Sequence record: PQ758395
Source: Escherichia phage phita32
Direction: 5' to 3' (one strand)
DNA length: 64,000 nt
A program made the translations under genes and the position numbers. Below, piece after piece: positions 30,450-46,449 of this stretch; positions within the stretch are counted from its first letter, which is position 1, and each line of letters opens with the position of its first letter. The notes under the pieces were generated by a model, which searched no databases, was not told the DNA's origin, and saw nothing but the letters and a program-made list of their open reading frames with translations.

Positions 30450-33020
30450 CTCCTCTTTTCCTACCACAAACGGCCAAGCCTGGCAAGTGGAATAATTGAC
30501 TAGCCAGCAATTACCAACACTGTACAAACATACATGTAAAATAGCTATTGCATAATATTTCATTGTGTGGTAGCAGGGCCATTTTTACCCGCTTTTCCTT
30601 CCAAAACTGCATGTAATTCCACTATTGCACAAAATTTAACCTGATGCACAATATCTCTTTCTTGTCAACAACTAAAAATCTTTATAAGTCATACACTTAC
30701 ATAACCACAAAAGCGTGTTCTACGTGAAAAATCGGGTATAACTATAGCCACTAAATTCCAGAATTCACGTAGCGTCACCATTCTATAGCCCGCTAAGTAT
30801 TTATTCCGACCATAGAATAACGGAATAGTCAATACCTGCATAAAATAATTATTCGTGTAAACTGCATAACATAAATCAGCTAGGGTGTCAACATTTTTCG
30901 TAAACAGCTTGAAATTATCACGGTGAGTTATCATAAGCAGATAAATCTTTAGTCGTCTAATGTTTACTGTACGTTACTATACTAACTGAAATCATTAGAT
31001 GACTAAGAGAAAGATAAGAAATCATTAACAATGCAATTGTTTTATTCGTAACAATAAGGCAACTATGCAAACGAATGGCATGGCGCGACGGAGTCGCGAC
31101 ATAATATAAAAGCAGTAACCATCACCCCCGTGATAGTTTGTCTGCAAACTATTAATCAGATCATAGTTGCCTTGTATTTAGTTAATCATGACATAAACTC
31201 AGGCATAGCCTTCGTCTCGAGGATGTTAACAAGCAAGGCAACTATAGATCTGCTAATAGTTGCCCTGCTTTTATATTATGTCATAGAAACACCCGAAGGG
31301 GTGACCAAAGGTCACCTGGCATAGCCAGTGAAAGATTATTAACTTGCTAATTGTCAACTTGTTGGCTGTTAGCTTGTCAATTGTAAACTAGTTAATTGTT
31401 ATCATGCAAACGAATGGCATGGCTTATCATCTATGCGTGAACTATCCAGGCGTAAACAGTCTATGTGGGAACAATCTATACGTGAACAGTGAAACATGAA
31501 ATAATAACAGTCGTTATTGTGGCGTATTGTGCTGCAGTATGTCATATTGTGTCAGACAAGTTTTTCTCCTCTTTGTCAAGTGCTGCATGAAAAATTTACA
31601 ATCTTGTATGGTAGCATTTTGCGGCCCTGTTTACATTCAGGAATGTATGTATAATCCTTGTTGTGTGGGCGTTTAGACGTCTGGACGGTCAGAAGTCTGC
31701 AGGTTAATATCTAATCTATTGGCTGCTAACTATATCCCCCACAAATAATAAGAAATATAATTGTTATATGTGTAAACCGTAACTCATGTTATCAATCCCT
31801 GTATGTATCGCCAGTGGTGCGCATAATGGGTATTATGTTAAATTGCCCGTAATGATAACTATTCTCACAATGATAGGTATTCTCATTCACCCCACAAGAT
31901 AGGTTGCAAATGTTGTGCCACTGTGTGAACGGCCTCACCTATTAATTTGCCTCACTGCCTCGATATTTGAGAATTATTATAAGAATGAAAAGTATTCCCA
32001 TTTCGTCCGCCTGGCAGCACTCCAGTCGCTACCGGCTCCTGACAGGGAAGCACTCCTGTAGGACAAGCACAAAATCGTGGTATAACTGGACCTGTTCAGA
32101 TATTTCTGGCTGGCTCTTCAGGTCTGTGTGGGAAAAGTCAACCTCTCTGGCGGGGCAGGGGATCATGACGGGAAAATTGCAGGTCAATTAAAAAATTTAC
32201 GTGGTGTATGAAGCGCTCTTCAGGTAAGGCATGTATTATGGGATGAAACCCTCTTCAGGCAATGATATTTGTGGGTGTGATATTTGCTGGAAAGCCAGAT
32301 ATGACGGGACTCCCGTCGGGGCAGGGGTAGTACAGACAGGGAAAATATGGGGATGTAGTTGGGGAAATTGATCAGACAGGTAGAGTATGGAATATGTTAC
32401 AAGTATGTTAACTATGGAGGGTGAATATCTGTAGGATTTGTGTGTAAAATCAAAGACTTAAGTGGTGTTGTGGTATTTTCTATAAATAATTCAAGTTTAA
32501 TAGGTAATATTTGTCTCTATCCGCTTTGTGTGGTAAACAGATTCAGATGAGATTGGTTTACAAGTGTATACATAATATACAAATTAAAGATACAAGAAAC
32601 CCCCCTCCCCCTTCAGCTACCATTCACCTTTTCCTCTGACTGGTACTTAAACACTTATTCAGACTCTTCAGGTTATCACCCATATATCATATGGCAGTGA
32701 CTGGTGTCCTCCGGCCCCTCTTTCGTCACCCGTCCGCTTCGCCATGCTAATGCCATAGCCAAATGTTCGGTTGTTCACCCTGTTCACTCAGGTGTATCTC
32801 CATACCCCTTCAAACCGAAGAGAACAGAAAACCCGAATTACTCGGTAAAAGAAAAGAGAAGAACTTAATTTTATCAGGATAGGCAAGAATGTCAAGGCAT
32901 GACTGCTCACTAAACAAGCAAACAGTCATGTGTGGTAGGTAAGTGATTGTGGTGGTAGGAAATTTAGTTGAAAGATGTGTTATAGGTGCTTCCAGCACTT
33001 TAGCCGGGCAACTAATTGTG
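30450..33020. other. 2.6-kb ORF-free, repeat-dense region between convergent gene blocks (candidate origin/regulatory or ncRNA locus)
   Basis: No ORF of 60 aa or more except one weak hit; repeat families GGCAACTAT/ATAGTTGCC (x4, 31050-31280), CTATRYGTGRAAC direct repeats (31431-31490), CAAACGAATGGCATGGC (x2), CTCTTCAGG (x4-5), GGGGCAGGGG (x2). Confidence 0.5.
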
Positions 33021-33022
33021 TG

Positions 33023-33238
33023 TCAGTCCAGTGGTTCATCACCTACTTCACTGAAATCGATGTTCATGGTCTCCTCCCAACCATCAATCTCAGCACCAGA
33101 GTAGAGATCTTTAGGACTCACTCCCAAAGCCTCAGCAACAGAATCCATGTTTAACACTTCTGGCAGGTACGATTCATCGAATTCGAGGTAAATCAGGCCA
33201 CGAGTGTTGTCAGCTCCACCAAATATTTCTATCTTCAT
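33023..33238 (-). CDS. hypothetical acidic protein
   Basis: ORF with AGGAGA SD; first/most distal gene of leftward block. Confidence 0.45.
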   Translation of the reverse strand: MKIEIFGGADNTRGLIYLEFDESYLPEVLNMDSVAEALGVSPKDLYSGAEIDGWEETMNIDFSEVGDEPLD

Positions 33239-33359
33239 GAAATCTCCTCTAGAAATGAGAGTGTGAACAGGGTTTTATACGTTCCAATGCACAGGAATTA
33301 TGCACGTTTGCCTCTTCAGGCCATGCTTTAGCATGAGGAACCTGTGTGGGCTCGGTGCT

Positions 33360-33572
33360 TCATAGTCTACCACCCCTGAACTCTTCGTGCTCAGGCATAA
33401 TAGAGAACCAGATATCTACGATGTCCTCCCACGTCAGGTCATCAGCCTCAGGATCCACCTGGAGCAAAGATGGAGAGTCTTCAGAATCGAAGTTTTCCTC
33501 TTTAACTGGCTCAGCCAAGGGACATATGGTCACTCCTTTGGATGTTTCTTCAGATGCATGTGTGTTGATCAT
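33360..33572 (-). CDS. hypothetical acidic protein
   Basis: ORF; ATGA overlap with upstream small peptide gene. Confidence 0.45.
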   Translation of the reverse strand: MINTHASEETSKGVTICPLAEPVKEENFDSEDSPSLLQVDPEADDLTWEDIVDIWFSIMPEHEEFRGGRL

Positions 33573-33670
33573 GTTCCACCCGTGAGTATTCCGGCAACAG
33601 CCGCTATGGACGTAATGATCATCAGGATCACCACTAAAACCTCGGATAATGTTCTCATTGTGTATCCCAT
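33569..33670 (-). CDS. small membrane peptide (33 aa, not in ORF track)
   Basis: ATG at 33670 downstream of minus-strand promoter; MGYTMRTLSEVLVVILMIITSIAAVAGILTGGT. Confidence 0.35.
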   Translation of the reverse strand: MGYTMRTLSEVLVVILMIITSIAAVAGILTGGT

Positions 33671-33690
33671 ATTCTACAAATTATGTGTGG

Positions 33691-33719
33691 ATACTATCAC
33701 TGGAGCGGTAATGTGTCAA
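33691..33719 (-). promoter_or_regulatory. sigma70-like promoter, minus strand (TTGACA-17-TAGTAT)
   Basis: Minus-strand -35 is the complement of 33714-33719, -10 the complement of 33691-33696. Confidence 0.55.
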
Positions 33720-33879
33720 CAGAAACGCCGCGAGGGTTTGGTTAAAATCCGAGCGTATGGTGATTTGGGTCAAAACGGACGTGCGTTCTCGCTACGCTCG
33801 AAAGAGGGATTTGTTTGTAGACCGTCCTTAAACGCTCTGTAACGAGACTATCTGTCCAAGGTATGCAATCGTGCACCAG

Positions 33880-33908
33880 ATAAAGAAAAGGACGCCACAG
33901 AGCGTCCT
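33880..33908 (-). terminator. probable rho-independent terminator, minus strand
   Basis: Minus-strand AGGACGC-tctgtg-GCGTCCT then TTTCTTTAT. Confidence 0.55.
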
Positions 33909-33932
33909 AGGTGTCTTAAATTTGATATTTTG

Positions 33933-34235
33933 CTATACCCATGAGGGTTTATCAAGGTTGGAGTAGCTAAAAGGTGTCAAAAGGTGATTGTCAAAATCTC
34001 TCAAACTATCCAGATCTTTTTCCTCGTCCTGACACCATCTGTGTCTACATTTATTGTTGTAGTGCATAGAATGCATAGCGTTCTGCAACTTAACAGGCAC
34101 AAGTGATTCAAGTATTGTTGGGTATGCCAGAACCACCTCAAACAGTGGAAACACATCGAAACTAAAGTCTACCTCTGCAAAGGTTGATGGCATGTAGGAG
34201 TATTTAGCCGCCTTTGTAGACATAATCCACCTCAC
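33933..34235 (-). CDS. hypothetical protein
   Basis: ORF in leftward operon. Confidence 0.45.
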   Translation of the reverse strand: MRWIMSTKAAKYSYMPSTFAEVDFSFDVFPLFEVVLAYPTILESLVPVKLQNAMHSMHYNNKCRHRWCQDEEKDLDSLRDFDNHLLTPFSYSNLDKPSWV

Positions 34236-34564
34236 ACAGGTTTGATAATACCTTTACCGAATAACTCTTCGTATCTAATCCTATCCGGATCCCACCCCTG
34301 GATAATTTCGAAGACAATATCCAACCCTGGGATGATCACTTCTCCAGTGTCAAGCTTAGCAAGAACAAAACCGGAAGGTTGAATGGTTTCCCAGTTACAG
34401 CGATCAGAGTAAAGTACTTCGAAAATATTACCAACCTCAATCCGTTTCTGTTGCTCAAGATGCTCCAGGTTCTCTTTCATGCGGATGCAGCGGATTTTTC
34501 GTGCAGGCCATAGACCGCCTGCATCACGTTCATTTAGCTCTTTTACAGTAATCGGTATACCCAT
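34232..34564 (-). CDS. hypothetical protein
   Basis: ORF, ATGA overlap. Confidence 0.45.
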   Translation of the reverse strand: MGIPITVKELNERDAGGLWPARKIRCIRMKENLEHLEQQKRIEVGNIFEVLYSDRCNWETIQPSGFVLAKLDTGEVIIPGLDIVFEIIQGWDPDRIRYEELFGKGIIKPV

Positions 34565-34620
34565 CTCAAATCTCCTTCATAGATAGTAAAAAAGAGGGGC
34601 CCAAGCTCCCCTCTTTGTCA

Positions 34621-34926
34621 TTATTCTACAGAGCGTTTGAACAGAATGTCTGCCTCAGACATGTGCTCAACCTCTTCTTCGATTTTAGCTCGACGTTTTT
34701 CAGCCTCATAGCGAATATCGAACTCAGTAGCCACCAGAGATTTGATGAATTTAGGAGAATACAGATGATCCTGCTTCTCAACGAGAATGATATCCTTAAT
34801 GGCATCTTTCAGATCTTTAATCTGAAGTTGGAGTTCCACCAGTTCTTCGATTGTTTTGCGAAGGCGATCACGCTCTGCAGTGTCAGAAGGAAGAGAGGTG
34901 AACAGTTCAACTTTAGATTTAGCCAT
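34621..34926 (-). CDS. hypothetical coiled-coil protein
   Basis: ORF with SD. Confidence 0.45.
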   Translation of the reverse strand: MAKSKVELFTSLPSDTAERDRLRKTIEELVELQLQIKDLKDAIKDIILVEKQDHLYSPKFIKSLVATEFDIRYEAEKRRAKIEEEVEHMSEADILFKRSVE

Positions 34927-34954
34927 AGTAAGAGTCTCCTTATGTTGTTTTAAA

Positions 34955-35206
34955 TTAACGTTCTACAAAAATACCGTTCAGTTCAATAACCAGGAATTTC
35001 TGGTCTTCACTATCGTCTCGTGCCAGCACCTCACAGACGTATCGGTCATCCCCATCATCATCGCAGTCAAATACAAGACTGAGGACTTTATCATGATAAA
35101 CCTTCGCCACTACCGCCTCGTAAGTATTGCCGATTGTGAATCCAAGATAATCTCCAATGCATTTGACAACAACATGATCACCAGCATTCAAGTCAATCTT
35201 CGTCAT
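34955..35206 (-). CDS. hypothetical protein
   Basis: Start moved from track 35272 to ATG 35206 with AAGGAG SD. Confidence 0.45.
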   Translation of the reverse strand: MTKIDLNAGDHVVVKCIGDYLGFTIGNTYEAVVAKVYHDKVLSLVFDCDDDGDDRYVCEVLARDDSEDQKFLVIELNGIFVER

Positions 35207-35361
35207 TACTGCGCTCCTTGGGTAATAATACTGTATGTAAAACTTTAACCAGAGATGTGAACAACGCCCCAAAACACACCGATAGCGCTAAAACAGACAA
35301 GGCCATCATTAAAGCTTCAGTAAAATCAGTCATTCCTCACCTCTTGTTAGTCACTATACTA

Positions 35362-35625
35362 TCATTTATCCTTGCCGTCAAGAACTTTTTTAAATCTTTC
35401 AGGTATATCACCCGTTCTTAGATAGCTCATGACCTCACAAGGTTCCCACTTGAATTTCTTACAGAGCAGGGCGGCTGAGATTGTTTCATTGCGAAAAGAA
35501 AGGATATTAATATCCCACTCTGAGAACCCCAATTTACGAAGAGTAGCTACAGAAATCCTCACCGCAACCCAGCAGCAAAAACATGCAACAAACGCCACTG
35601 CTACAACCCACATCAGGATGTTCAT
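35362..35625 (-). CDS. putative membrane protein
   Basis: N-terminal helix NILMWVVAVAFVACFCCWVAV. Confidence 0.45.
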   Translation of the reverse strand: MNILMWVVAVAFVACFCCWVAVRISVATLRKLGFSEWDINILSFRNETISAALLCKKFKWEPCEVMSYLRTGDIPERFKKVLDGKDK

Positions 35626-35714
35626 ATAAGCACCTTACTGAAATACAAGACACAGGGTTAAGGTTACTGACCAGCAAATAATTAACAGTGCCGTTGCAAC
35701 CTTGGCAAGATTTA

Positions 35715-36002
35715 TCATAGTGCCTCTAAGATTTCATACCCTTCGGGTCGGAATACAAGCCACTCCGTGGCTCCGTTTGGTCGATATGCTTTATACAAAA
35801 CAACCTGATCTCGGCACATACACATGGCTACATAGTTTTCATCCACACCTGCAGCCTGCATTGCATCTTCTTCTCCGGCAACTGCTTTGCTTACAACTTC
35901 CTTGGTAGGCAGGTGTGCGATCAGCTCGTCACCATCATTAATTCCAAAATGGCTGAGTTCTCCATTGGTATCTTTAATCTTAATCTTAACCAGATCTTTC
36001 AT
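35715..36002 (-). CDS. hypothetical protein
   Basis: ORF in operon. Confidence 0.45.
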   Translation of the reverse strand: MKDLVKIKIKDTNGELSHFGINDGDELIAHLPTKEVVSKAVAGEEDAMQAAGVDENYVAMCMCRDQVVLYKAYRPNGATEWLVFRPEGYEILEAL

Positions 36003-36331
36003 TGGTCTTTCTCCAGGTTCAAAGGCCCTAAGATTTCATATGCCAGATTAGAAGTTACCAGAGGGTCTTCTACATCTTTAGTATTATACCACCCGTGAAT
36101 AACCAGAGTCCCACTCTGTTTCATATCTAACTGGAACTGTTCTGCAGTTTCTTCATCCATCTCTAAGATCTCCATAAGGTATTTGATGTTAGGAAGGTAT
36201 GCAGCTGTTACAGTTCCCTCCACCAAACCTTCTGGCCAACCTACATCTGGATGACAAGTAGGAACCAGGTTGGTCAGCTTAATGGTGTACGCTTTTTCTG
36301 CACGAGCCTTCAGTAGCTGGTCAATCTTCAT
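35999..36331 (-). CDS. hypothetical protein
   Basis: ORF, overlapping stop/start. Confidence 0.45.
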   Translation of the reverse strand: MKIDQLLKARAEKAYTIKLTNLVPTCHPDVGWPEGLVEGTVTAAYLPNIKYLMEILEMDEETAEQFQLDMKQSGTLVIHGWYNTKDVEDPLVTSNLAYEILGPLNLEKDQ

Positions 36332-36681
36332 TATTCGTCCTCCTCTTCGGTGCCTGCTTCCAGTAATAAGTTAAGAATATCTTCTGCACAAGGCTCATAG
36401 AACTCTTGGCCTTCATTATCGATGATTTTGTAGTCATCTCCGCGAATAATCAGAGGATCACTCTCAAAATTATCGAGACCTTTAACAACGACAACACGAT
36501 CGATTGCCATCATTGTAAGAACTTTATCGACATCTTCCTCTGCTACACCATACTGCAGCAGAATGTCTTTGGTAGGAGGGACAGCATCCACCACAACACC
36601 GTTACCAAAACCTTCCGGCAAGTTAGCTAAAATATCTTCCGGAACCACATTCACATCAAAACCGGTAATTTCTACTTTCAT
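36331..36681 (-). CDS. hypothetical acidic protein (MK-V/I family)
   Basis: Starts MKVEITG, acidic tail EEEDE. Confidence 0.45.
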   Translation of the reverse strand: MKVEITGFDVNVVPEDILANLPEGFGNGVVVDAVPPTKDILLQYGVAEEDVDKVLTMMAIDRVVVVKGLDNFESDPLIIRGDDYKIIDNEGQEFYEPCAEDILNLLLEAGTEEEDE

Positions 36682-36942
36682 TTACAGCACCTCTTCGTCA
36701 ACTACTTCATAAAAATGGCCTGGGATTGCAATAGCGTTCTCACCTTCACCTACAAACACAGTTCCGTCAAGAATCAACATCATAAGAATTTCTGGAATAT
36801 CCTCTTCCGGAACGTTGCCAAAACCTTTAATCAGTGTGTAGGTTGGAAGATTTACCTCTAAGATGTCACCATCTTTAGAGCGGAAATCAACACCATCCTG
36901 AATCTCTGCCATTTCAAGGTTTTTCAGTTTAATCTTCATCAA
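36682..36942 (-). CDS. hypothetical acidic protein (MK-V/I family)
   Basis: Starts MMKIKLKN, ends EVVDEEVL. Confidence 0.45.
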   Translation of the reverse strand: MMKIKLKNLEMAEIQDGVDFRSKDGDILEVNLPTYTLIKGFGNVPEEDIPEILMMLILDGTVFVGEGENAIAIPGHFYEVVDEEVL

Positions 36943-37018
36943 TCAGTCTCCCGTCTTGTTAAGATGAAGGTATTATTTCACACAGAGTTGGTGTTGTCAA
37001 CACCTGTGTGCAAGAAAA

Positions 37019-37414
37019 TTACTGAAACAGTGCAGATAAATTACCTTCTGGTGGGAACTTATCTGCCAAAAACGGTGTTAGCACAGTAGCCTTCTGAAGA
37101 TCTGGGGTCCACTCGTTGTTCAGAACATCCCAGTAGTACGCAATGTTGCTGTGTGGGTGCCGCATTACGAACTTTTTCCCTTCGTAGTCATCTGAAACCT
37201 CTACAGAAGAAATAACAACAGAATCTTCAAGGGTTTCTTCATAGAAAGATCCGCCTTCAAATTTCCAACGAGATGCAAGAGCCCCTGCCTTGAACGCTGC
37301 AGATAACGGACTGTCGGCAAGAACATACATTTCTTGCACTCTGTCGCTGCGATCTTTGCTTCTTACGTTGTACACAGTATCTGAGCTATACTCAACACGG
37401 TATAGGCTTACCAT
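37019..37414 (-). CDS. hypothetical protein (paralog of 39222..39620)
   Basis: Shares HP(H/D)S..(Y/H)YW...WTP motif with 39222..39620. Confidence 0.45.
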   Translation of the reverse strand: MVSLYRVEYSSDTVYNVRSKDRSDRVQEMYVLADSPLSAAFKAGALASRWKFEGGSFYEETLEDSVVISSVEVSDDYEGKKFVMRHPHSNIAYYWDVLNNEWTPDLQKATVLTPFLADKFPPEGNLSALFQ

Positions 37415-37746
37415 TACCGCACCTCCTCAATAACTTCCACATCTGAACCCACCACAAATGCAAAAGGACAGGTTTCATGAAAGACATCCGGATCGCCGCC
37501 AAGCTTGCTAACAATTTCTCCACCACTAATAAACACAAGCTCACCGATATTAATCAGATTGCTGAAATAGTATCCATAATGATTAAAGAATGCAGCAGGG
37601 TCAGGTAGACTAGTGGCCTCAAGTTCTACATCGGTTGAGATTACTTTCTTATCATAACCTCTCGCCTTCTGAGATGCAAGATCTGCAGAATCTTCAGGCG
37701 ACCGGAGATGCACAGGAATTGTTTCACCAATAAAGCGTACTTTCAT
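37414..37746 (-). CDS. hypothetical protein (MKV family)
   Basis: Start moved from track 37773 (TTG) to ATG 37746 (MKVRFIGE); ends VEVIEEVR. Confidence 0.45.
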   Translation of the reverse strand: MKVRFIGETIPVHLRSPEDSADLASQKARGYDKKVISTDVELEATSLPDPAAFFNHYGYYFSNLINIGELVFISGGEIVSKLGGDPDVFHETCPFAFVVGSDVEVIEEVR

Positions 37747-37750
37747 ATTA

Positions 37751-38015
37751 TCACCCAACAACCATAGCTTCAAAAGGGGTCATGAACGAATAAACGGCAT
37801 CATCATCTGCTTCAGGGAATGCTCCCAAAGACTTCATGTCTGAGCCCTTGACAAATACAAGGTTTTGATCAAAAGCTTCTTGGGGGGTCAATCCGATACA
37901 TATTTCGTAGAATATCACCTACCTCTTCATCAAGAGGTGAGTATGCTGTGCACGTTTTTCCGATCAAGCTTTGAGAATCAGGGTATCCACCTGAAGTTTT
38001 AAAATAAACAATCAT
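37751..38015 (-). pseudogene. frameshifted member of the MKV small-protein family
   Basis: ATG 38015 with GAGGTGA SD opens a 46-codon ORF that stops; a second frame continues ..LVFVKGSDMKSLGAFPEADDDAVY resembling NVVFILGSDLITAGAPE of 39633..39887. Confidence 0.4.
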
Positions 38016-38106
38016 ATAGTATCACCTCTGGTAAGAGATTGGGATTCCTTTCCCACAAATAATTACAAATCTTCCTTATCGAGGAAGTATGCTAATCCAA
38101 GCAGGA

Positions 38107-38376
38107 TTATTCCTCTACAATCTCATACACATCAGGAGTTACAATCAACTCTTCTCCGTTACCCGGTGCAACAAACACCACCAAACCTTCAGGTGTGTGC
38201 TTTTTAGCCATTTCGATAACATCTTCTCGCAGAGCTGGCTCCATCAGATCAAAACCTTCACCCAGGGCATCACGAACCACCTTCATATAGTCAACTGGTT
38301 GTGCTTCGACAATCATGCCTTCAACCAGTCCACAGTTTTTGTCTGCCAGCTCAGTTTTGAATAATTTAATTTTCAT
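38107..38376 (-). CDS. hypothetical acidic protein (MK-V/I family)
   Basis: Starts MKIKLFK, ends VYEIVEE. Confidence 0.45.
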   Translation of the reverse strand: MKIKLFKTELADKNCGLVEGMIVEAQPVDYMKVVRDALGEGFDLMEPALREDVIEMAKKHTPEGLVVFVAPGNGEELIVTPDVYEIVEE

Positions 38377-38402
38377 TTAGAGGTCTCCTCAATTATTTGA
38401 TA

Positions 38403-38504
38403 TTAATAGCCGTAACCTAACACATTAACTACAACTGCGATTGCAAACATAATTTCAAAGCATGCAATCTCTACATTTGGGACTAATTTCTTAATCACGC
38501 CCAT
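38403..38504 (-). CDS. small hydrophobic peptide (33 aa, not in ORF track)
   Basis: ATG 38504 with GAGGTG SD 10 nt after the HPF stop; MGVIKKLVPNVEIACFEIMFAIAVVVNVLGYGY. Confidence 0.3.
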   Translation of the reverse strand: MGVIKKLVPNVEIACFEIMFAIAVVVNVLGYGY

Positions 38505-38513
38505 TGTAGCACC

Positions 38514-38831
38514 TCATTCTCCAAAGTCAATCTTTACTTTGCCTTTCCCCTTACCTTTCTTTCCACCGCATTTAGCCAGCTGACGTGCTGCAACATCTAC
38601 CATACGGTCAGTTGCCTCGTAAGCATCACTACCTTTAGCCTTGGCAATAACTTCTTTTCCAGAATTGTCAAAAATGAGCGCCATAACTCCCTGGTGATCA
38701 TTTTCAACTTTTACACTCACACGTGCATAGTTGGCAGAGGGGTGCAAACGCTCCAGCTTAGACATTTTGTGGGAAATGAAAGACACCATACCTTCAGTGA
38801 TTTCTACGTTGCCAGTGATTTCAATTTGCAT
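38514..38831 (-). CDS. ribosome hibernation promoting factor / RaiA (YfiA) family protein
   Basis: MQIEITGNVEITEGM..KLERL..VSVKVEN..AKGSDAYEATDRMVDVAARQLAK aligns along its length with E. coli HPF/RaiA (MQLNITGNNVEITEAL..KLEQY..VVLKVEK..AEGQDMYAAIDGLIDKLARQLTK). Confidence 0.75.
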   Translation of the reverse strand: MQIEITGNVEITEGMVSFISHKMSKLERLHPSANYARVSVKVENDHQGVMALIFDNSGKEVIAKAKGSDAYEATDRMVDVAARQLAKCGGKKGKGKGKVKIDFGE

Positions 38832-38878
38832 AACGTGTTCCTTTTAAAGAAGAGGGAACCAAACCCTCTTTGAAAACA

Positions 38879-38907
38879 ATGATACTAAATCTGAAGCGTT
38901 GTGTCAA
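38879..38907 (-). promoter_or_regulatory. sigma70-like promoter, minus strand (TTGACA-17-TATCAT) for the HPF gene
   Basis: Minus-strand -35 is the complement of 38902-38907, -10 of 38879-38884; AGAGGG..CCCTCT leader hairpin 38850-38869. Confidence 0.55.
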
Positions 38908-38913
38908 CAGTTT

Positions 38914-39204
38914 TTACAGCTTGTTGTCGATAGTTTTTAAAATATCCACAGCGAGATCTGCCATTTTTCGAACATACTCTGCAAACTCAACAGGATCCTT
39001 GATCAAAGAATTCACAGGGTCGTACCCTAGAGCGTTTAAAATGGCTGCAGCATCTACAACCTTCTCATCATTTGCGAAGATCTCTCCGTCAAACTTGTAG
39101 GTCCATTTTGAGTCAACCTTAGCAGAGCAGGGTTTGTCCATGCTTGTTACACCATCGTCTTTAAACTCTCCTGCGTTATCAATATTTAGAATTAAATCCA
39201 TCAT
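38914..39204 (-). CDS. hypothetical protein
   Basis: ORF in operon. Confidence 0.45.
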   Translation of the reverse strand: MMDLILNIDNAGEFKDDGVTSMDKPCSAKVDSKWTYKFDGEIFANDEKVVDAAAILNALGYDPVNSLIKDPVEFAEYVRKMADLAVDILKTIDNKL

Positions 39205-39221
39205 GGTGACACCTCACTGTT

Positions 39222-39620
39222 TCAGTTTAGCTTTTCTTCAACAACCCCATAACTTGGGGCAGAGTCAAGAGCTTTCTGGTTTAAAAGTGGCGTAGCAGAA
39301 TCTGCAAACGGTGTCCAAGTTTTTGTTCTGGCATTCCAGTAATGCTTCACTCTGGAATCTGGATGCACTATAACAAAAACTTTTTCACTTGTCAACACAT
39401 TAATTTCTTCTACACCCTTGCTGATAATTTCTCCGTCATAGCCCCCAGTCTGGTATCCTTCGTACCAGGTTCTTGCATAGGCATAGCCAGCCTGCCAGCA
39501 TGCAGCCTCCTCCGAGGTGGAGACTACGTAGAAGTCTTTCTCAAATTCTGGAATACGCCCTTGCTTTACGCTCCAAGCCCCGCGAATTTTCATTGTAACT
39601 TTAAACAGTTTATTTTTCAC
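39222..39620 (-). CDS. hypothetical protein (paralog of 37019..37414)
   Basis: Shared HPDS..HYW..WTP motif. Confidence 0.45.
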   Translation of the reverse strand: MKNKLFKVTMKIRGAWSVKQGRIPEFEKDFYVVSTSEEAACWQAGYAYARTWYEGYQTGGYDGEIISKGVEEINVLTSEKVFVIVHPDSRVKHYWNARTKTWTPFADSATPLLNQKALDSAPSYGVVEEKLN

Positions 39621-39632
39621 AACGGTTACCCA

Positions 39633-39887
39633 TCACAGCTCTACAATATCTGCATCTGACCCTACCCCAAAGGCATAGTAGGACTCTTCCCCGAAATAAT
39701 ATTCAGGTGCACCAGCGGTGATCAGGTCTGATCCCAAGATAAACACCACGTTGTGGCCTACATAACTGTGATGTTGCCGCACAGGATCATCCCACGGCAA
39801 CCCTTCAAAGTATACCGCAGGAGCGACCTTTCCCTTCAGGAAGGATTGTCCCAAGTAGACGTTAGAATCAAGAATTTTAACCTTCAT
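39633..39887 (-). CDS. hypothetical protein (MKVK family)
   Basis: MKVKILDSNVYLGQ..GKV..DLITAGA shared with 39877 and 43531 genes. Confidence 0.45.
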   Translation of the reverse strand: MKVKILDSNVYLGQSFLKGKVAPAVYFEGLPWDDPVRQHHSYVGHNVVFILGSDLITAGAPEYYFGEESYYAFGVGSDADIVEL

Positions 39888-40104
39888 GATCGTCCTCCAC
39901 TACCTCTACATCCTCGCCTAGGGCAAAGTTGTAGGTCCACTGACTGTCAAAGCAGTCCTGAGATGCACCAGCGGCAATAAGATCTGCTCCTTTTATTTTT
40001 AAAAGGTCAGGGTAATCTTCGTTAGGGACAGCAGTAAACACTTTTCCTACTAAAGGCTCCTGACCAATATAGAAGCTTGAATCTAAAACTTTAACTTTCA
40101 TCAA
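39877..40104 (-). CDS. hypothetical protein (MKVK family)
   Basis: MMKVKVLDSSFYIGQ..GKV..DLIAAGA, acidic tail VEVVEDD. Confidence 0.45.
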   Translation of the reverse strand: MMKVKVLDSSFYIGQEPLVGKVFTAVPNEDYPDLLKIKGADLIAAGASQDCFDSQWTYNFALGEDVEVVEDDHEG

Positions 40105-40388
40105 CGGTCTCCATCAGGTGGTTGTGGGACGTAAACACTGTTACGAATATCGTCCGCAGTATAGTAATAAGTGTCTCCAACCCTATCTCTGGCTGCAATG
40201 TACTCTGCTATACCAATAAGTGCCATTGATTTGGTGGCGTATCTTCCCAACTCGTTAGCTCCCCAGTAGAATTTAGACCAATAGGGAATAAGACCGAACA
40301 AATATACCTTTTGACGAACTTCCCAGTAAGTGCCTTTCCCGACAAGTTTAAACTCAACTTCACCACTGTTAATCTTTTTCATTATCAA
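40101..40388 (-). CDS. hypothetical protein
   Basis: ORF, overlapping stop/start. Confidence 0.45.
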   Translation of the reverse strand: MIMKKINSGEVEFKLVGKGTYWEVRQKVYLFGLIPYWSKFYWGANELGRYATKSMALIGIAEYIAARDRVGDTYYYTADDIRNSVYVPQPPDGDR

Positions 40389-40681
40389 TCTCCCTCCACC
40401 GTGGTTGGATTGTCAGTAAGAAATTGAGCATTAGCTGGAGGCACGCCTGACATTTTCCACACAACCATAAGTTTGTAACCAGGCACTCTATTAAGTGCAG
40501 ATCGAGTAGAGTTTGTGCACGTATATTTTCGCTTTCCAAACCCGTTCTCAAGCATGATCCAGTATCCCGTGTCTTTATCACCTGGAATTGGTAATCCCTC
40601 ATCGTCCACCCATTGAATGGACCATGGCACGATGGCTACAGCTTTATATTTAAACTTTTTAAACCACTCAAAAAGTTTCAT
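40385..40681 (-). CDS. hypothetical protein
   Basis: ORF, overlapping stop/start. Confidence 0.4.
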   Translation of the reverse strand: MKLFEWFKKFKYKAVAIVPWSIQWVDDEGLPIPGDKDTGYWIMLENGFGKRKYTCTNSTRSALNRVPGYKLMVVWKMSGVPPANAQFLTDNPTTVEGD

Positions 40682-40776
40682 AATTCAGCCTCGCATAGAC
40701 ATAATCACTATAAACAGGCAAACAATGAATCCGAATGCCACGCCACTCATAAACGTTAATATTGATGCAATCATAG

Positions 40777-40962
40777 TCAATCAGCCTCGCTTGGCAACTC
40801 TTCCACCTTAACATGCCGAAAAGTGTTACCGTAATGGTTGATCCATGACATCAGCTCACTTTCTTGCTCTTCCTCTGAGATGGACTCTCGAATGCTGACA
40901 AGTTTTAAGAAAACCCAATCACAATCTGAACCCATTCTACCAGACAGACAATAGTGCTTCAT
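40777..40962 (-). CDS. hypothetical protein
   Basis: short ORF. Confidence 0.35.
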   Translation of the reverse strand: MKHYCLSGRMGSDCDWVFLKLVSIRESISEEEQESELMSWINHYGNTFRHVKVEELPSEAD

Positions 40963-40981
40963 AAAAACCCTCCACCCTGGT

Positions 40982-41182
40982 TTAGAATACTGCCTCTTTT
41001 AATGATCCAAGGAGCAGCAGGTGTGAAATCTGATCCACATTCATGGTAGATTCAATCTCCTCTCTTTTGAAAGGTTCTCGGCAAAACAGTACTACATTCG
41101 GGTTTTCGCTACGCACTATATAATACAGATCGTTCAAATCATTCTCATAGTAGGTATTAAATTTAAGAATTTTGTCACTCAT
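40982..41182 (-). CDS. hypothetical protein
   Basis: short ORF. Confidence 0.4.
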   Translation of the reverse strand: MSDKILKFNTYYENDLNDLYYIVRSENPNVVLFCREPFKREEIESTMNVDQISHLLLLGSLKEAVF

Positions 41183-41241
41183 TTTCTAATCCTCTTCTTA
41201 GATTTTTGGGGAGAAACGCTTTCTGCAATACGGGACAAACG

Positions 41242-41466
41242 TTATTCTGAAGCCTTGCCTATTCCAGGTTTTTTGAGTGGATTATCTTTATGACCACAAT
41301 CCAATTGGATATTGGATACCTCTCCAACCTTGTAAGTCAATTCTAGCAAAAGGTTGTCGTCCTTGTCAAATGTTCTTACGATAAATTTTTTATCGTTCTC
41401 CTGAACTTCATATCTGGTACCTGCAGTATACAGCATGGTGCCATCAGCATAAGATATCCAGATCAT
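41242..41466 (-). CDS. hypothetical protein
   Basis: short ORF. Confidence 0.4.
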   Translation of the reverse strand: MIWISYADGTMLYTAGTRYEVQENDKKFIVRTFDKDDNLLLELTYKVGEVSNIQLDCGHKDNPLKKPGIGKASE

Positions 41467-41810
41467 TGAGCCTCCTTCTGCTGCAACAGCATTAACTCTT
41501 TGTTAGAGATCTTTACTGCTGTTTTTATTGTTCCATCTTTACGGAACCACGACCAGAACTCTACAGTGTCCCCACTATCAAGCAAAGCATGCCCATGGTA
41601 GAAGTCTTTGTCCTTGGACAGTTTCTCATCTATGTCTGCATCGACACATTCGTGATCCATAGCATTTTGCCTGAATGCATCGGTTATGCCAATGCACGCC
41701 TTGCTCTCAAGACTGGCATATCCGATATCTTTTAATTCAGTTTCCCAAACCCATGACCCTATAAAAGCCACAACAGCTACCCACATTAATATCGATTTAA
41801 TCTTTGACAT
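41463..41810 (-). CDS. putative secreted/membrane-anchored protein
   Basis: N-terminal hydrophobic MSKIKSILMWVAVVAFIGSWVW. Confidence 0.45.
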   Translation of the reverse strand: MSKIKSILMWVAVVAFIGSWVWETELKDIGYASLESKACIGITDAFRQNAMDHECVDADIDEKLSKDKDFYHGHALLDSGDTVEFWSWFRKDGTIKTAVKISNKELMLLQQKEAQ

Positions 41811-41870
41811 TCTCTCTACCTCTTTCTTAGTTTATTTAGTTATGGCACATCCTTTGTGCCTTATTGCACG

Positions 41871-42332
41871 CTACTTAAACAACAGTTCAAGATAGTGCAA
41901 AATTAACAGAAGTTGAATTACGCCTAGCACAACGGCAAGTATGTTAATCTTAGAATCAAAAAACTTCTTAACTTTTACCCTAAAAGGCTCCTTGATGTCC
42001 TTTACGATCCTATTTATAGATGATTTCATATCCCTGATTACCATCCTAAACATTAGGGACGGATCTTCCTTCTCTGTAACAGAATCGAAAACATACTCTC
42101 TTCGGTCATAAGGACCTCCAGATCTGCGTATTAACCTCTCCACAGAGACCTCGTACGACACACCTGTAACGTAATCATCTATGATAAGTAGTGACGGGTC
42201 TTTATCGTCCAAGGGTATCAAAGTTATCTTTCCAGATTTTGTTAAAATTTCTCCTTTTTCAAGCAAGGTGTACCAATGCTCTCTACCAAGATTGTTGAGG
42301 CACGTTTTTACATATTTAACAAACATCGTCAC
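41871..42332 (-). CDS. hypothetical protein with C-terminal membrane anchor
   Basis: C-terminal ILAVVLGVIQLLLILHYLELLF helix. Confidence 0.45.
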   Translation of the reverse strand: MTMFVKYVKTCLNNLGREHWYTLLEKGEILTKSGKITLIPLDDKDPSLLIIDDYVTGVSYEVSVERLIRRSGGPYDRREYVFDSVTEKEDPSLMFRMVIRDMKSSINRIVKDIKEPFRVKVKKFFDSKINILAVVLGVIQLLLILHYLELLFK

Positions 42333-42532
42333 CCCTCATCGCACGTCTGATATAACCACTCTATAAAATCTTGATACCATTCGCCCTCTGAGCGCTCCGT
42401 AGGCCAATAATCTTCACCCTCTCGTGCATTAAAATCTGAGTATTCAACTTTCCACTCCTTTACCAGCTCGTGGAGAAGGTTTTCAGCCTGCTCTAAAGAT
42501 TTATTTTTTGCCATTGCTGTCTCCTTTTTCAA
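42329..42532 (-). CDS. hypothetical protein
   Basis: short ORF. Confidence 0.4.
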   Translation of the reverse strand: MKKETAMAKNKSLEQAENLLHELVKEWKVEYSDFNAREGEDYWPTERSEGEWYQDFIEWLYQTCDEG

Positions 42533-42733
42533 GATAGTTATACATCAGAACTGCACCACCTAAGATGGCTACCAGTAACAATACCCCAGATAGCATCTCA
42601 ATAAACATGGCTTGAAACACTGGAAGGTCTCCCTAAATTAACGCACCATTTTAAATACATGCTCTTTTCCCATAAAGGTGCTTGGCTAAGATCTGCGTAG
42701 AACGCAATCTCTTTAAGAACAGTATAAACAGTT

Positions 42734-42970
42734 TTAGGTGCGGTATCCATCCCTACTCTCCTTTTTCTCCTTACGGATATTCTTGTAGTAATCAACTAGG
42801 CACATTATTACGATGAAGATAACAATAGGCCAAAAAGGTGCAGCAGTGATGATGGTGATAAAATCATCAAACTTCACCTTTCGTCTAGCCACGATGCATA
42901 CACCTGTCAAGAATACCGCTGTTATAACGGCTATCACCAGGTAACCTATTAGCACAACATTTATACTCAT
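42734..42970 (-). CDS. putative small membrane protein (two TM helices)
   Basis: VVLIGYLVIAVITAVFLTGVCIV and AAPFWPIVIFIVIMCLV helices. Confidence 0.4.
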   Translation of the reverse strand: MSINVVLIGYLVIAVITAVFLTGVCIVARRKVKFDDFITIITAAPFWPIVIFIVIMCLVDYYKNIRKEKKESRDGYRT

Positions 42971-43000
42971 TAGTCCTCACTTTGTAGGTTAAATTGTATA

Positions 43001-43534
43001 CTACAGATGGTTGCTGATGGTGTCAAGAAAATTATCCCGTTCTTTCTCAGAGTTTTCACGGGTGTATCTGAAAAACATATCGAGAATAACCTTATTGATA
43101 TATTCCAGCTCCTCTGTGTTCAGGTACTTAGCAGGATCTACAATGACATCCCAAATATCATACAGACCACACTCATGATATCCATAACGCCACTCAATTG
43201 TCAAGCTGAGCGGCAAATCTTTACCGTCACAAACAACCTTCCATCTACATATGTTGGTATCTGGGCGTATCTGTGCACGGTATACCTGTACAAAATCCAA
43301 TTTGAATTTGAGGTATTCGTCATGCAATTTAAGCACAAAGCTCTCGATTTGTGGAGACACTTTTGCAGCAAACTGTGCGTATTTGTATTTGCACTGGATG
43401 ATCTTTCTGCGTTTTGCAGTTAAATTTTTTGCCGCCAGTTGTTCTTCAGTGTATCTCCACCTACGATCAACAAACGCAACAGGGTCTTTGTCCCCATAGA
43501 GGTCTTCCCAGTTAATCAGAAGCATACCTGTCAC
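43001..43534 (-). CDS. hypothetical protein
   Basis: 177-aa ORF. Confidence 0.45.
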   Translation of the reverse strand: MTGMLLINWEDLYGDKDPVAFVDRRWRYTEEQLAAKNLTAKRRKIIQCKYKYAQFAAKVSPQIESFVLKLHDEYLKFKLDFVQVYRAQIRPDTNICRWKVVCDGKDLPLSLTIEWRYGYHECGLYDIWDVIVDPAKYLNTEELEYINKVILDMFFRYTRENSEKERDNFLDTISNHL

Positions 43535-43764
43535 TCCTCCACAACTTCAAGTCCTTTACCGCCTCGCTCTGGCAGATTACTTAAAGATAGGTAATACATA
43601 TAATCAGGAGAGATCCTGCCAGACTCTGCACCTGCAGATAGTAAATCTTTTCCCTTAACCATGACAACATTATCGTTTGCAGATAGCCGTTTTGCTTCCA
43701 CAATTTTACCAACGCAGTCAACCAAGGAAGGGTACCCTAAATCTGTAAGAAATTTAACTTTCAT
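43531..43764 (-). CDS. hypothetical protein (MKVK family)
   Basis: MKVKFLTDLGY..GKIVEA..DLLSAGA, ends LEVVEE. Confidence 0.45.
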   Translation of the reverse strand: MKVKFLTDLGYPSLVDCVGKIVEAKRLSANDNVVMVKGKDLLSAGAESGRISPDYMYYLSLSNLPERGGKGLEVVEE

Positions 43765-43803
43765 GCTACCTCCTACTTCTACCGTCCCTGGTAAGATGAA
43801 TTA

Positions 43804-44202
43804 TTACTGAACAGAGCGCGGGGCTGGGAAGGATAACTCTTCTAAAGAGAAGATTTCATTTCCCACAATCCATGTTGCCGGATCATCTGGGTTGACCGGA
43901 TAGATAATCATCACCTCGTCAGTGTTACATACCCGCTTTTTACCTGTGGAGTCATCAGCAACCAGCATGCGCGGTTCTTCAGAAATGCACAGGTAGCCTC
44001 CTCGGCCCACTGTTCCTTCCACAGGGTCTTGTCCTTTGATCACGATGATTATCTTCTCTCCTGAGGCGATATTACCTTGCACACTCACCGTTTGACCAAC
44101 CTTGGATGTGCCAATCTTAGTGACTTCGAACATTACATCCCGAATTACTGTTGCATAATCGCCAGACACTTTCTTACCTTCTTTAGTGATCTCAATCTTC
44201 AT
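43804..44202 (-). CDS. hypothetical protein
   Basis: Starts MKIEITKEG. Confidence 0.45.
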   Translation of the reverse strand: MKIEITKEGKKVSGDYATVIRDVMFEVTKIGTSKVGQTVSVQGNIASGEKIIIVIKGQDPVEGTVGRGGYLCISEEPRMLVADDSTGKKRVCNTDEVMIIYPVNPDDPATWIVGNEIFSLEELSFPAPRSVQ

Positions 44203-44471
44203 ACACTGGGCCTCTTAAATGAATCTATGTAATCAATTAAATCCCAAGCATCCCTATGACCTGTCAGAGGGTATACTTCTCCAAGAGGGATCATAGCAAT
44301 AAGTCTATCAAAAACCCAATCTGGACGCAACATTTTATGGTGATACTCCCACTCACCTTCTACAGACTTTTTCTGAGTGATCAGGATCTCTGTGTAGTGT
44401 TTCGCCTGTCTTGAGTAGATTGAGAATGACTTGTACATAAATGGCTCCCTCTTGTTGAAAACAAAATACAC
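44199..44471 (-). CDS. hypothetical protein
   Basis: ORF, overlapping stop/start. Confidence 0.4.
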   Translation of the reverse strand: MYFVFNKREPFMYKSFSIYSRQAKHYTEILITQKKSVEGEWEYHHKMLRPDWVFDRLIAMIPLGEVYPLTGHRDAWDLIDYIDSFKRPSV

Positions 44472-44473
44472 TA

Positions 44474-44758
44474 CTACCAGGTCACTGTCAAGTAGGCAAC
44501 TGTGTTATTTTTCTCCGGAGAGATGCCAACAACATCCACCTGCAGACCTCCTTCCCTCAAATCCCCAACAATGTGTGGGAAGTAGTCTGAGAGGTGTGAT
44601 GGGAGATTTATCGAAAATCCACATCCCAGAAAGCCTGCTAACGCTTTATTTTGTATCTCCCCTACAATCGCATCATAAATAGAGTTAAGCTCGTCAGGAA
44701 GCGTTACAGGGCGTTTTAGCGCTAACTGGTGCAACTTGTCCTTAGCACTCATTTTCAT
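44474..44758 (-). CDS. hypothetical protein
   Basis: Start moved from track 44827 to internal ATG 44758 to remove overlap with the MTase gene. Confidence 0.4.
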   Translation of the reverse strand: MKMSAKDKLHQLALKRPVTLPDELNSIYDAIVGEIQNKALAGFLGCGFSINLPSHLSDYFPHIVGDLREGGLQVDVVGISPEKNNTVAYLTVTW

Positions 44759-45288
44759 TTCAAGTCTGCCTCTGGAGGTGCCAACCACATAAATGGCGGC
44801 AGGTCTAAACGGTTCTTCTTGTCCCACACAAAATATGCATATGCTTGCCCGTCAGTTCTGCCATTCGATTGGAATGATGGACGCTTAGATATTGTGATCA
44901 CAGTGGTAGGTGCATTATCAAGCCACCATTCAAATCTGGCTTTGCTTTCCAGAAAATTAAGACGCAAAAGCATAATAACTACGTCAGCATCTTTCAACGC
45001 CTTGTCTACAAACTCACGAGCCAAGCTGTACGGTGGGTTGGTGATAATACAGTCAACATGGTTGTATTCTGTATTCAGATAGTCAACACCTTCTTGGATT
45101 TCTCCCCATGCAGATCCTAACGGCATACGGGAGTAGAACACGCCTGAGGCGCTATTTCTGCAAGGCTCCAAATAGGTCCAATCTTCTGGGAACGGAATGA
45201 GGTCATACAGCCCTTCTGCACACCACTCCGGTGTCACATACTCATCGTAGGCGTTACGTTGTTCATCAGGTTTTCTAGCACAAGTCAT
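44755..45288 (-). CDS. small DNA methyltransferase (N6-adenine / N4-cytosine type)
   Basis: Motif IV DCIITNPPYS (NPPY). Confidence 0.6.
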   Translation of the reverse strand: MTCARKPDEQRNAYDEYVTPEWCAEGLYDLIPFPEDWTYLEPCRNSASGVFYSRMPLGSAWGEIQEGVDYLNTEYNHVDCIITNPPYSLAREFVDKALKDADVVIMLLRLNFLESKARFEWWLDNAPTTVITISKRPSFQSNGRTDGQAYAYFVWDKKNRLDLPPFMWLAPPEADLK

Positions 45289-45339
45289 GCAAATCTCCAG
45301 ATCATAAAAGCCCTCCGAAGAGGGCTTTAGAATTAATGT

Positions 45340-46389: not shown

Positions 46390-46449
46390 GAGAAATCCTT
46401 AATATTGGAAGTTGAAAGCTATTTATTTAAACCTGATTCACATTTACCT

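What the first reader, a model, noticed from the sequence alone, without database searches (positions are those of the whole stretch)
38514..38907. Phage-encoded ribosome hibernation factor (HPF/RaiA) with its own promoter
The 105-aa product aligns along its length with E. coli HPF/RaiA and carries a Lys/Gly-rich tail. It has a dedicated TTGACA-17-TATCAT promoter and leader hairpin inside a block of otherwise unassigned genes. A phage HPF could silence host ribosomes or protect them during infection.
Basis: partly seen in the sequence, partly recalled or inferred. Interest (0 to 1): 0.6.

Follow-up and report, generated by a model that had tools for sequence, protein, structure and literature searches.

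The report
Known rV5 phage HPF homologue
The gene is a genuine phage copy of the bacterial ribosome-hibernation protein HPF, but it and its promoter are already annotated in coliphage rV5, and the one published ribosome-binding test (2019) was negative, so this rediscovers a known oddity of unknown function.

Summary
Window 38514..38831 (-) encodes a 105-aa protein that passes the curated cut-offs of Pfam PF02482 (Ribosomal_S30AE) and TIGR00741 (HPF/YfiA). It aligns end to end with E. coli HPF (about 40% identity) and is predicted to adopt the beta-alpha-beta-beta-beta-alpha HPF fold, followed by a disordered Lys/Gly tail. A TTGACA-17-TATCAT promoter and a 7-bp stem-loop lie upstream.

The window is an rV5-like coliphage (Vequintavirus). 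The rV5 GenBank record already annotates this ORF ("sigma 54 modulation factor", ORF 144) and this promoter (P144). Mizuno et al. 2019 described rV5 HPF and expressed it in E. coli. They did not find it in high-salt-purified 70S or 100S ribosomes and saw no effect on 100S formation.

New details from this work:
- The core and the basic tail are under strong purifying selection (core dN/dS about 0.03-0.1).
- A sister lineage of uncultured phages carries a 63%-identical copy behind the same -35 box.
- The leader hairpin is one instance of a promoter plus stem-loop pattern that recurs in this genome, not an HPF-specific element.

Family membership is secure. The role in infection is untested. My best guess is that it parks and shields vacant host ribosomes. 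Novelty: already known. Interest: low.

The parts
38514..38831 (-). CDS for a 105-aa HPF/YfiA-family protein (homologue of rV5 ORF 144, ABI79209); stop codon at 38514..38516
   Evidence: ORF list. PF02482 E 2.7e-12, above the gathering score. TIGR00741 above its cut-off. 98% identical to the rV5 protein.
38565..38831 (-). Residues 1-89: S30AE core domain, beta-alpha-beta-beta-beta-alpha
   Evidence: AF2 model: pLDDT 86-93 over the core, with elements E2-7 H13-29 E33-43 E46-55 E60-67 H70-89. Foldseek top hits are V. cholerae HPF 4hei and E. coli HPF 6h4n/2rql, rmsd 0.9-1.6 A. The near-invariant family residues K22, G58, D69, Y71, D75 and Q84 are all present. dN/dS is 0.03-0.1.
38517..38564 (-). 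Residues 90-105: Lys/Gly-rich basic tail (GKKGKGKGKVKIDFGE), predicted disordered
   Evidence: pLDDT about 42. Tail net charge is +5. The amino-acid sequence is kept across rV5-like phages despite many synonymous changes. It is frameshifted or truncated in the Murica and APCEc02 records. The sister lineage has a different but still basic tail.
38879..38907 (-). Sigma-70-type promoter TTGACA-17-TATCAT (= rV5 P144)
   Evidence: Annotated as 'Sigma70-type promoter; P144' in DQ832317. The -35 box is invariant and the -10 is TATCAT or TATTAT in 10 relatives. The promoter class is enriched 19 against 1.55 expected.
38850..38870 (-). Stem-loop close to the 5' end of the predicted transcript: AAGAGGG-(7 nt)-CCCTCTT
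   Evidence: Fold gives -9.9 kcal/mol, z = 0.11 against shuffles. It is retained in most rV5-like phages with loop changes and one 5-nt insertion, weakened in nomo and A142, and absent from the sister lineage. Similar promoter plus stem-loop pairs occur elsewhere in the window.
38839..38843 (-). Shine-Dalgarno AAGGA, 7 nt before the ATG
   Evidence: Read directly from the sequence. A ribosome-binding site is annotated at the same place in phage Murica.
38403..38504 (-). 33-aa hydrophobic ORF (homologue of rV5 ORF 145), starting 9 nt after the HPF stop; probably co-transcribed from P144
   Evidence: phrog_15151, E 3.7e-26, function unknown. Annotated in rV5, FV3, V18 and JES2013. Absent from the sister lineage.
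38107..38376 (-). 89-aa ORF (homologue of rV5 ORF 146), next gene downstream, function unknown; followed by a terminator-like hairpin at 38087..38071
   Evidence: No Pfam hit. phrog_11868, function unknown.

Best explanation
This is the rV5-group (Vequintavirus) phage homologue of the short gammaproteobacterial ribosome hibernation-promoting factor HPF. It was acquired long ago and has been kept under purifying selection. It is transcribed by unmodified host sigma-70 RNA polymerase from the near-consensus internal promoter P144, together with two small downstream ORFs, so it is presumably made from the start of infection. Mechanism (inferred, not shown): the conserved core binds vacant host 30S/70S ribosomes in the channel between the 30S head and body, where A- and P-site tRNA and mRNA sit, as E. 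coli HPF and RaiA do. The flexible poly-Lys/Gly tail adds rRNA affinity and may reach toward the mRNA channel, as the RaiA extension does. The likely consequence is reversible parking of idle ribosomes, and protection of their 16S rRNA from nucleases, while host mRNA disappears or when the infected cell is starved. Shown: family membership, fold, promoter, selection. Inferred: ribosome binding, timing, benefit to the phage. I put family membership at about 0.95 and this particular mechanism at about 0.4. The 0.5 below is a compromise for the whole statement.
For: Curated HMM cut-offs are passed. The full-length alignment to E. coli HPF gives E about 5e-12. The predicted fold matches solved ribosome-bound HPF structures at about 1 A. 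All near-invariant family positions are retained, including the helix-1 lysines and the RQL motif of helix 2. Core dN/dS is 0.03-0.1 at dS up to 0.8 within rV5-like phages, and synonymous sites are saturated against the sister lineage while 63% of residues are kept. The tail is conserved at the amino-acid level through synonymous changes. The promoter is conserved in all relatives and already annotated. Hibernation factors of this family protect 16S rRNA from YbeY and RNase R (PMC7913689).
Against: When rV5 HPF was expressed from pBAD in growing E. coli, it was detected in extract but not in high-salt-purified 70S or 100S ribosomes, and 100S levels did not change (PMC6375957). The authors note that growth phase or the stringent salt wash could explain this. 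The protein scores far below the E. coli HPF equivalog cut-off (55.4 against 125) and is at most 45% identical to any cellular homologue, so its function may have drifted. There are no expression-timing or knockout data. Two deposited genomes carry truncated tails, so the tail is either not essential or those records contain sequencing errors.
Confidence: 0.5

Rival explanations
1. Anti-hibernation competitor. The phage protein occupies the HPF/RaiA site, and its 10-residue-longer basic tail blocks RMF binding, as the RaiA extension is thought to do. This prevents or reverses 100S dimer formation, so ribosomes of starved or dormancy-induced hosts stay as readily reusable 70S for phage translation.
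For: At 105 aa the protein is longer than E. coli HPF (95 aa) and shorter than RaiA (113 aa, sequence recalled from memory), and its tail starts at the same point after helix 2. RaiA's 18-residue C-terminal extension is thought to protrude toward the mRNA channel into the RMF site (PMC7913689). Mizuno et al. proposed competition with cellular homologues. RMF is induced during an abortive or dormancy phage defence, DRT2 (PMC11100668). No RMF homologue is encoded in the window.
Against: Expression of the protein did not visibly change 100S levels. The tail is basic and Gly-rich, unlike the acidic end of RaiA. The core is much closer to HPF than to RaiA. No binding has been demonstrated.
Confidence: 0.2
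2. Canonical hibernation promoter used for host shut-off. With host RMF, it drives ribosomes into inactive 100S dimers or otherwise silences host translation early in infection.
For: The closest solved relatives are short HPFs that act in this way. It has a sigma-70 promoter of the early type.
Against: The phage needs the same ribosomes for its own translation. There was no effect on 100S and no incorporation into 100S when the protein was expressed. RMF is scarce in growing cells (established knowledge). The equivalog cut-off is not met.
Confidence: 0.15
3. Repurposed fold. The protein keeps the S30AE fold but no longer binds the ribosome stably, and instead acts on another RNA or protein target, for example a phage or host mRNA.
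For: The published ribosome-association test was negative. The protein is at most 45% identical to any cellular HPF. It has a lineage-specific basic tail.
Against: All near-invariant family positions are retained. Strong purifying selection acts across the whole core. Hibernation factors are generally lost in high-salt washes (my recollection of the E. coli literature, not checked here).
Confidence: 0.15

Closest known systems
Escherichia phage rV5 ORF 144 / gp144 (ABI79209), 'sigma 54 modulation factor' or HPF; rV5 genome paper Kropinski et al. 2013, HPF analysis Mizuno et al. 2019
   Same: The protein is 98% identical and has the same length, same genomic position, same promoter (P144) and same neighbours. 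It is effectively the same gene in a sibling phage isolate.
   Different: There are two amino-acid substitutions (E48G, F52L) relative to rV5.
E. coli short HPF (YhbH), PDB 2rql/4v8h/6h4n
   Same: The two proteins align over residues 1-89 at about 40% identity. They share the beta-alpha-beta-beta-beta-alpha fold (rmsd 1.1-1.6 A to the model) and the conserved helix-1 lysines, the D-x-Y motif and the RQL motif.
   Different: The phage protein is 10 residues longer, with a Gly/Lys-rich tail, and has pI 9.0 against 6.5. It scores below the HPF equivalog cut-off. It is expressed from a phage sigma-70 promoter rather than the rpoN operon. No 100S-promoting activity was seen.
E. coli RaiA (YfiA, protein Y)
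   Same: It has the same domain, and it has a C-terminal extension beyond helix 2 (PMC7913689).
   Different: Identity is only about 20% and the RaiA model scores 19.5 bits against a cut-off of 158. The RaiA tail ends acidic, whereas the phage tail is basic.
HPF-like proteins of jumbo coliphages (Cronobacter phage GAP32, Escherichia phage PBECO4; phrog_8990)
   Same: They share the S30AE fold in large myoviruses of enterobacteria (PMC6375957).
   Different: Sequence identity is only 24-25%. They belong to a different PHROG (phrog_12469 against phrog_8990), and Mizuno et al. place them separately in the HPF tree. I read this as an independent acquisition, which is an inference.

Membership tests
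Ribosomal_S30AE / HPF-YfiA family (PF02482, TIGR00741) | Sequence score above the curated family threshold | tested here: met
   PF02482 scores 47.7 bits against 23.7. TIGR00741 scores 45.4 against 40.9.
Ribosomal_S30AE / HPF-YfiA family (PF02482, TIGR00741) | Beta-alpha-beta-beta-beta-alpha fold | tested here: met
   The AF2 model has mean pLDDT 81 and core pLDDT 86-93. The top 37 PDB matches are all HPF, RaiA, pY or RafH chains, and the best has rmsd 0.9 A. This is a prediction, not an experimental structure.
Ribosomal_S30AE / HPF-YfiA family (PF02482, TIGR00741) | Conserved family positions (helix-1 Lys, Gly58, Asp69-x-Tyr71, Asp75, Arg-Gln of helix 2) | tested here: met
   All are present in the window protein in alignments A1 and A2.
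Ribosomal_S30AE / HPF-YfiA family (PF02482, TIGR00741) | Binds the 30S subunit at the decoding centre | not testable with these tools
   The only published test was negative: rV5 HPF was absent from high-salt-purified 70S/100S (PMC6375957). Its authors regard this as inconclusive.
Short HPF, E. coli-type equivalog (NF007780) | Score above the equivalog cut-off | tested here: not met
   55.4 bits against a cut-off of 125. It is still the best-scoring model.
Short HPF, E. coli-type equivalog (NF007780) | Promotes RMF-dependent conversion to 100S dimers | not testable with these tools
   The published result shows no discernible effect on 100S.
RaiA / YfiA equivalog (NF007654) | Score above the equivalog cut-off | tested here: not met
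   19.5 bits against a cut-off of 158. Identity to RaiA is about 20%.
RaiA / YfiA equivalog (NF007654) | C-terminal extension that reaches the RMF site | tested here: inconclusive
   A 16-residue disordered extension exists, but it is basic and Gly-rich and unrelated in sequence to the RaiA tail. Where it would lie on the ribosome is unknown.
Long HPF (with C-terminal dimerisation domain) | Second, C-terminal domain of about 60 residues | tested here: not met
   The protein is 105 aa with a single Pfam domain. The tail is disordered.

The most novel reading that the evidence does not exclude
The phage protein is not a hibernation promoter. It is an early-made ribosome guard whose conserved poly-Lys/Gly tail lies in the mRNA channel or RMF site. 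It would keep host ribosomes as intact, quickly reusable 70S, either by blocking RMF-driven dimerisation or by shielding the 16S 3' end from host nucleases or dormancy-type defences. That would make it a counter-measure to ribosome-directed host responses.
Probability: 0.2. Interest if true: 0.55.

Novelty: already known. Interest (0 to 1): 0.15.

Why it matters
A virus carrying a ribosome-hibernation factor is biologically interesting, because it implies direct manipulation of the host's idle ribosome pool. This case has been public for years, however. The gene and its promoter are annotated in the rV5 GenBank record DQ832317, whose genome was described in 2013. The protein was analysed and expressed in 2019, and the gene is labelled in many of the roughly 120 matching Vequintavirus records. 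What stays open is the function: the only experiment was negative under conditions that may strip such factors from ribosomes. The evidence here for strong purifying selection on both core and tail, and for persistence in a sister phage lineage, argues that the protein is used. That justifies a proper test under low salt, in infected cells and in stationary-phase hosts, but it does not make the finding new.

Tried and rejected
1. Leader hairpin as an HPF-specific regulator: rejected.
   - Its energy is no better than shuffles (z = 0.11).
   - It shows no compensatory double changes, only loop changes, an insertion and weakened variants.
   - It is absent from the sister lineage.
   - Similar stem-loops follow several other promoters in the window.
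2. A second HPF gene next door: rejected. Some GenBank records label the ORF 146 homologue 'sigma 54 modulation factor', but it has no Pfam hit and falls in an unrelated PHROG. This is an off-by-one annotation error.
3. A phage RMF partner: tblastn with E. coli RMF (sequence recalled from memory) finds nothing in the window. The rest of the phage genome was not searched.
4. Recent transfer from the host: not supported.
   - The protein is about 40% identical to E. coli HPF and at most 45% to any cellular representative.
   - Gene GC is 0.434 against 0.429 for the window.
   - Synonymous sites are saturated between the two phage lineages.
5. Searches that yielded little:
   - The word-indexed protein search returned only 5 proteins.
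   - IMG/VR gave only 2 loci.
   - Literature searches for any functional study of a phage HPF later than 2019-2020 found none in the held library.
6. My first dN/dS comparison with the sister lineage used a wrongly placed gap (first line). It was redone.

Full report
**What is in the sequence**

On the minus strand, 38514..38831 is an ATG-initiated ORF of 105 codons. An AAGGA Shine-Dalgarno sequence lies 7 nt upstream of the ATG. Further upstream is a 7-bp stem-loop (38870..38850; -9.9 kcal/mol). Beyond that is TTGACA-17 nt-TATCAT (38907..38879), an 11/12 match to the sigma-70 consensus. The gene upstream ends at 38914. A 33-aa hydrophobic ORF starts 9 nt after the stop codon, and an 89-aa ORF follows before the first terminator-like hairpin at 38087..38071. 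The promoter is therefore an internal promoter of a long same-strand gene block, not a private one.

**Is it more than chance?**

- The protein matches Pfam PF02482 (Ribosomal_S30AE) at 47.7 bits, against a gathering score of 23.7 (E 2.7e-12).
- It matches TIGR00741 (HPF/YfiA family) at 45.4 bits, against 40.9.
- Residues 1-89 align with residues 1-89 of E. coli HPF chains in the PDB at E about 5e-12, with 40% identity.
- Near-consensus promoters (at least 11/12) number 19 in the window, against 1.55 +/- 1.16 in dinucleotide shuffles.
- The hairpin alone is not distinguishable from shuffles by energy (z = 0.11).

**Whose genome is this?**

The 2.5 kb around the gene is 98-99% identical to rV5-like coliphages of the genus Vequintavirus, including FFH2, rV5 and CM1. 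About 118 phage records encode the protein at 92-99% identity.

The rV5 record DQ832317 annotates the same ORF as 'sigma 54 modulation factor' (ORF 144, ABI79209). It also annotates the same upstream site as 'Sigma70-type promoter; P144'. Other records call the gene 'ribosome hibernation promoting factor' or 'RaiA'.

Three papers in the held library are relevant:
- Kropinski et al. [quoted passage not shown]
- Mizuno et al. 2019 (PMC6375957) listed rV5 HPF among virus-encoded ribosome-associated proteins and expressed it in E. coli. They detected it in cell extract but not in high-salt-purified 70S or 100S particles, and saw no effect on 100S. They noted that growth phase, salt stripping or genuine loss of binding could each explain this.
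- Mathieu et al. 2020 (PMC6969025) mention the hpf gene of rV5-like phages 'as already described'.

Both the observation and the interpretation are therefore already public.

**Anatomy of the protein**

An AlphaFold2 model built on a 17-sequence alignment has mean pLDDT 81, with the core at 86-93. Its elements run E2-7, H13-29, E33-43, E46-55, E60-67, H70-89, and residues 90-105 are disordered. Foldseek against the PDB returns only HPF, RaiA, pY or RafH chains in the first 37 places. The best are V. cholerae HPF (rmsd 0.9 A) and E. coli HPF from the 100S ribosome (rmsd 1.1 A).

Positions that are nearly invariant across the family are all present: the helix-1 lysine, G58, D69, Y71, D75 and the R-Q of helix 2.

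The protein is HPF-like rather than RaiA-like. The HPF equivalog model scores 55.4 bits and the RaiA model 19.5, and both are below their strict equivalog cut-offs. It has no long-HPF dimerisation domain.

The tail KCGGKKGKGKGKVKIDFGE gives the protein a pI of 9.0, against 6.5 for E. coli HPF.

**Evolution**

An exhaustive phmmer scan of 1.84 billion representatives found only 22 proteins at E <= 1e-3. The nearest protein outside the phage clade is 45% identical, so this was not a recent capture from the host. Gene GC (0.434) matches the window (0.429).

A sister lineage of uncultured phages, on contigs up to 125 kb among the places read and 137 kb on record, carries a 63%-identical, 103-aa copy in a syntenic block of small ORFs. 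Its -35 box is an identical TTGACA. It has no leader hairpin, and its tail is different but still basic (net +4).

Within rV5-like phages the core has dN/dS of 0.03-0.1 at dS up to 0.8. Against the sister lineage, synonymous sites are saturated while dN is 0.26.

The tail is also conserved at the amino-acid level through many synonymous changes: six synonymous against one or two non-synonymous differences in 19 codons between the window and L007. Two deposited genomes, Murica and APCEc02, have frameshifted tails in the A/G-rich run. These may be sequencing errors or tolerated truncations. The protein is clearly in use.

**The promoter and hairpin in context**

The -35 box is invariant, and the -10 is TATCAT or TATTAT, in ten relatives. 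The stem-loop is kept in most of them with differing loops and one 5-nt insertion. It is weakened in nomo and A142.

The same arrangement, a consensus promoter followed within a few nucleotides by a GC-rich stem-loop, recurs elsewhere in the window. The clearest cases are on the plus strand at 20812, 21480, 23321, 26813, 27076 and 29166. The hairpin is best read as a generic feature of this phage's sigma-70 transcripts, plausibly a stabilising 5' structure. That role is an inference. It is not an HPF-specific control element.

**How it most likely works**

Shown here:
- family membership;
- the fold, as a prediction;
- a conserved host-type promoter;
- purifying selection on both core and tail.

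Inferred:
- the core binds vacant 30S/70S ribosomes in the decoding channel, as E. coli HPF and RaiA do;
- the basic tail adds rRNA affinity or extends toward the mRNA channel, as the RaiA extension is thought to do (PMC7913689);
- the result is that idle ribosomes are parked and their 16S rRNA is shielded from nucleases. That protective role has been demonstrated for the E. coli factors (PMC7913689).

Rival explanations are an RMF-blocking anti-hibernation role (proposed by Mizuno et al.), a canonical 100S-promoting shut-off role, and a repurposed fold that no longer binds ribosomes. The published negative association result weighs against all ribosome-binding models. It was obtained with high-salt-purified ribosomes from cells not infected by the phage, so it is not decisive.

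**Verdict**

This is a correct reading of a real gene, and the gene is already known. It belongs to the HPF/YfiA family and is not an equivalog of either E. coli HPF or RaiA. Its function in infection remains untested. Interest is low. The residual value lies in the unanswered question of function and in the conserved basic tail.

Noticed in passing
window + strand 20812, 21480, 23321, 26813, 27076, 29166; - strand 38907, 41369: Near-consensus TTGACA-16/17-TAnnnT promoters are repeatedly followed, within a few nucleotides of the -10 box, by a GC-rich stem-loop (for example GGCGGGAAAACTTCCCGCC, -14.6 kcal/mol). This promoter plus 5' stem-loop cassette recalls the promoter-early-stem-loop elements of T4-type phages (from memory). 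The whole window holds 19 promoters with at least 11/12 matches, against 1.55 expected.
   Followed up: partly
L002-L005 (Logan/ENA metagenome contigs up to 125 kb), gene at 4001-4312: A sister lineage of uncultured rV5-like phages carries a 63%-identical, 103-aa HPF homologue in a syntenic block of small ORFs. It has the same -35 box but no leader hairpin, and it lacks the 33-aa ORF 145.
   Followed up: partly
window 38107..38376 (-), and GenBank records APCEc02_082, nomo_102, navn, SophiaRose: The unrelated 89-aa ORF two genes downstream is labelled 'sigma 54 modulation factor' in several records. It has no S30AE signal. Separately, a few records label the true HPF gene 'ATP-dependent protease La Type I'. 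Both are annotation-propagation errors.
   Followed up: yes
GenBank MG0656xx records (e.g. MG065659 'Campylobacter phage C5', MG065662 A142): Eighteen unannotated 'Campylobacter phage' records (A142, the one opened, is marked UNVERIFIED in its description) are 98-99% identical to rV5-like coliphages over this region and are classified under Vequintavirus. The host label is probably wrong or reflects contamination.
   Followed up: no
L014 (phage Murica) and L015 (APCEc02), tail codons 95-101 of the HPF gene: Single-base length differences in the A/G-rich GKGKGK-coding run give frameshifted, shorter tails (99 and 101 aa). These are either homopolymer sequencing errors or evidence that the extreme C-terminus is dispensable.
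   Followed up: no
window 39222..39620 (-) and 37019..37414 (-); 39633..39887 (-) and 39877..40104 (-): The small-ORF block contains paralogue pairs. Two proteins of about 131 aa belong to phrog_7379 (28% identity, E 8e-10). Two adjacent ORFs of 84 and 75 aa both begin MKVK(I/V)LDS (40% identity, E 9e-16). Their function is unknown.
   Followed up: partly
window 38403..38504 (-): A conserved 33-aa hydrophobic ORF (phrog_15151) sits 9 nt downstream of the HPF stop and is probably co-transcribed. It looks like a single-pass membrane peptide and its function is unknown.
   Followed up: no
window 1..64000: ARAGORN finds no tRNA genes in this 64-kb window, although rV5 is reported to encode several tRNAs. 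They must lie in the part of the genome outside the window.
   Followed up: no
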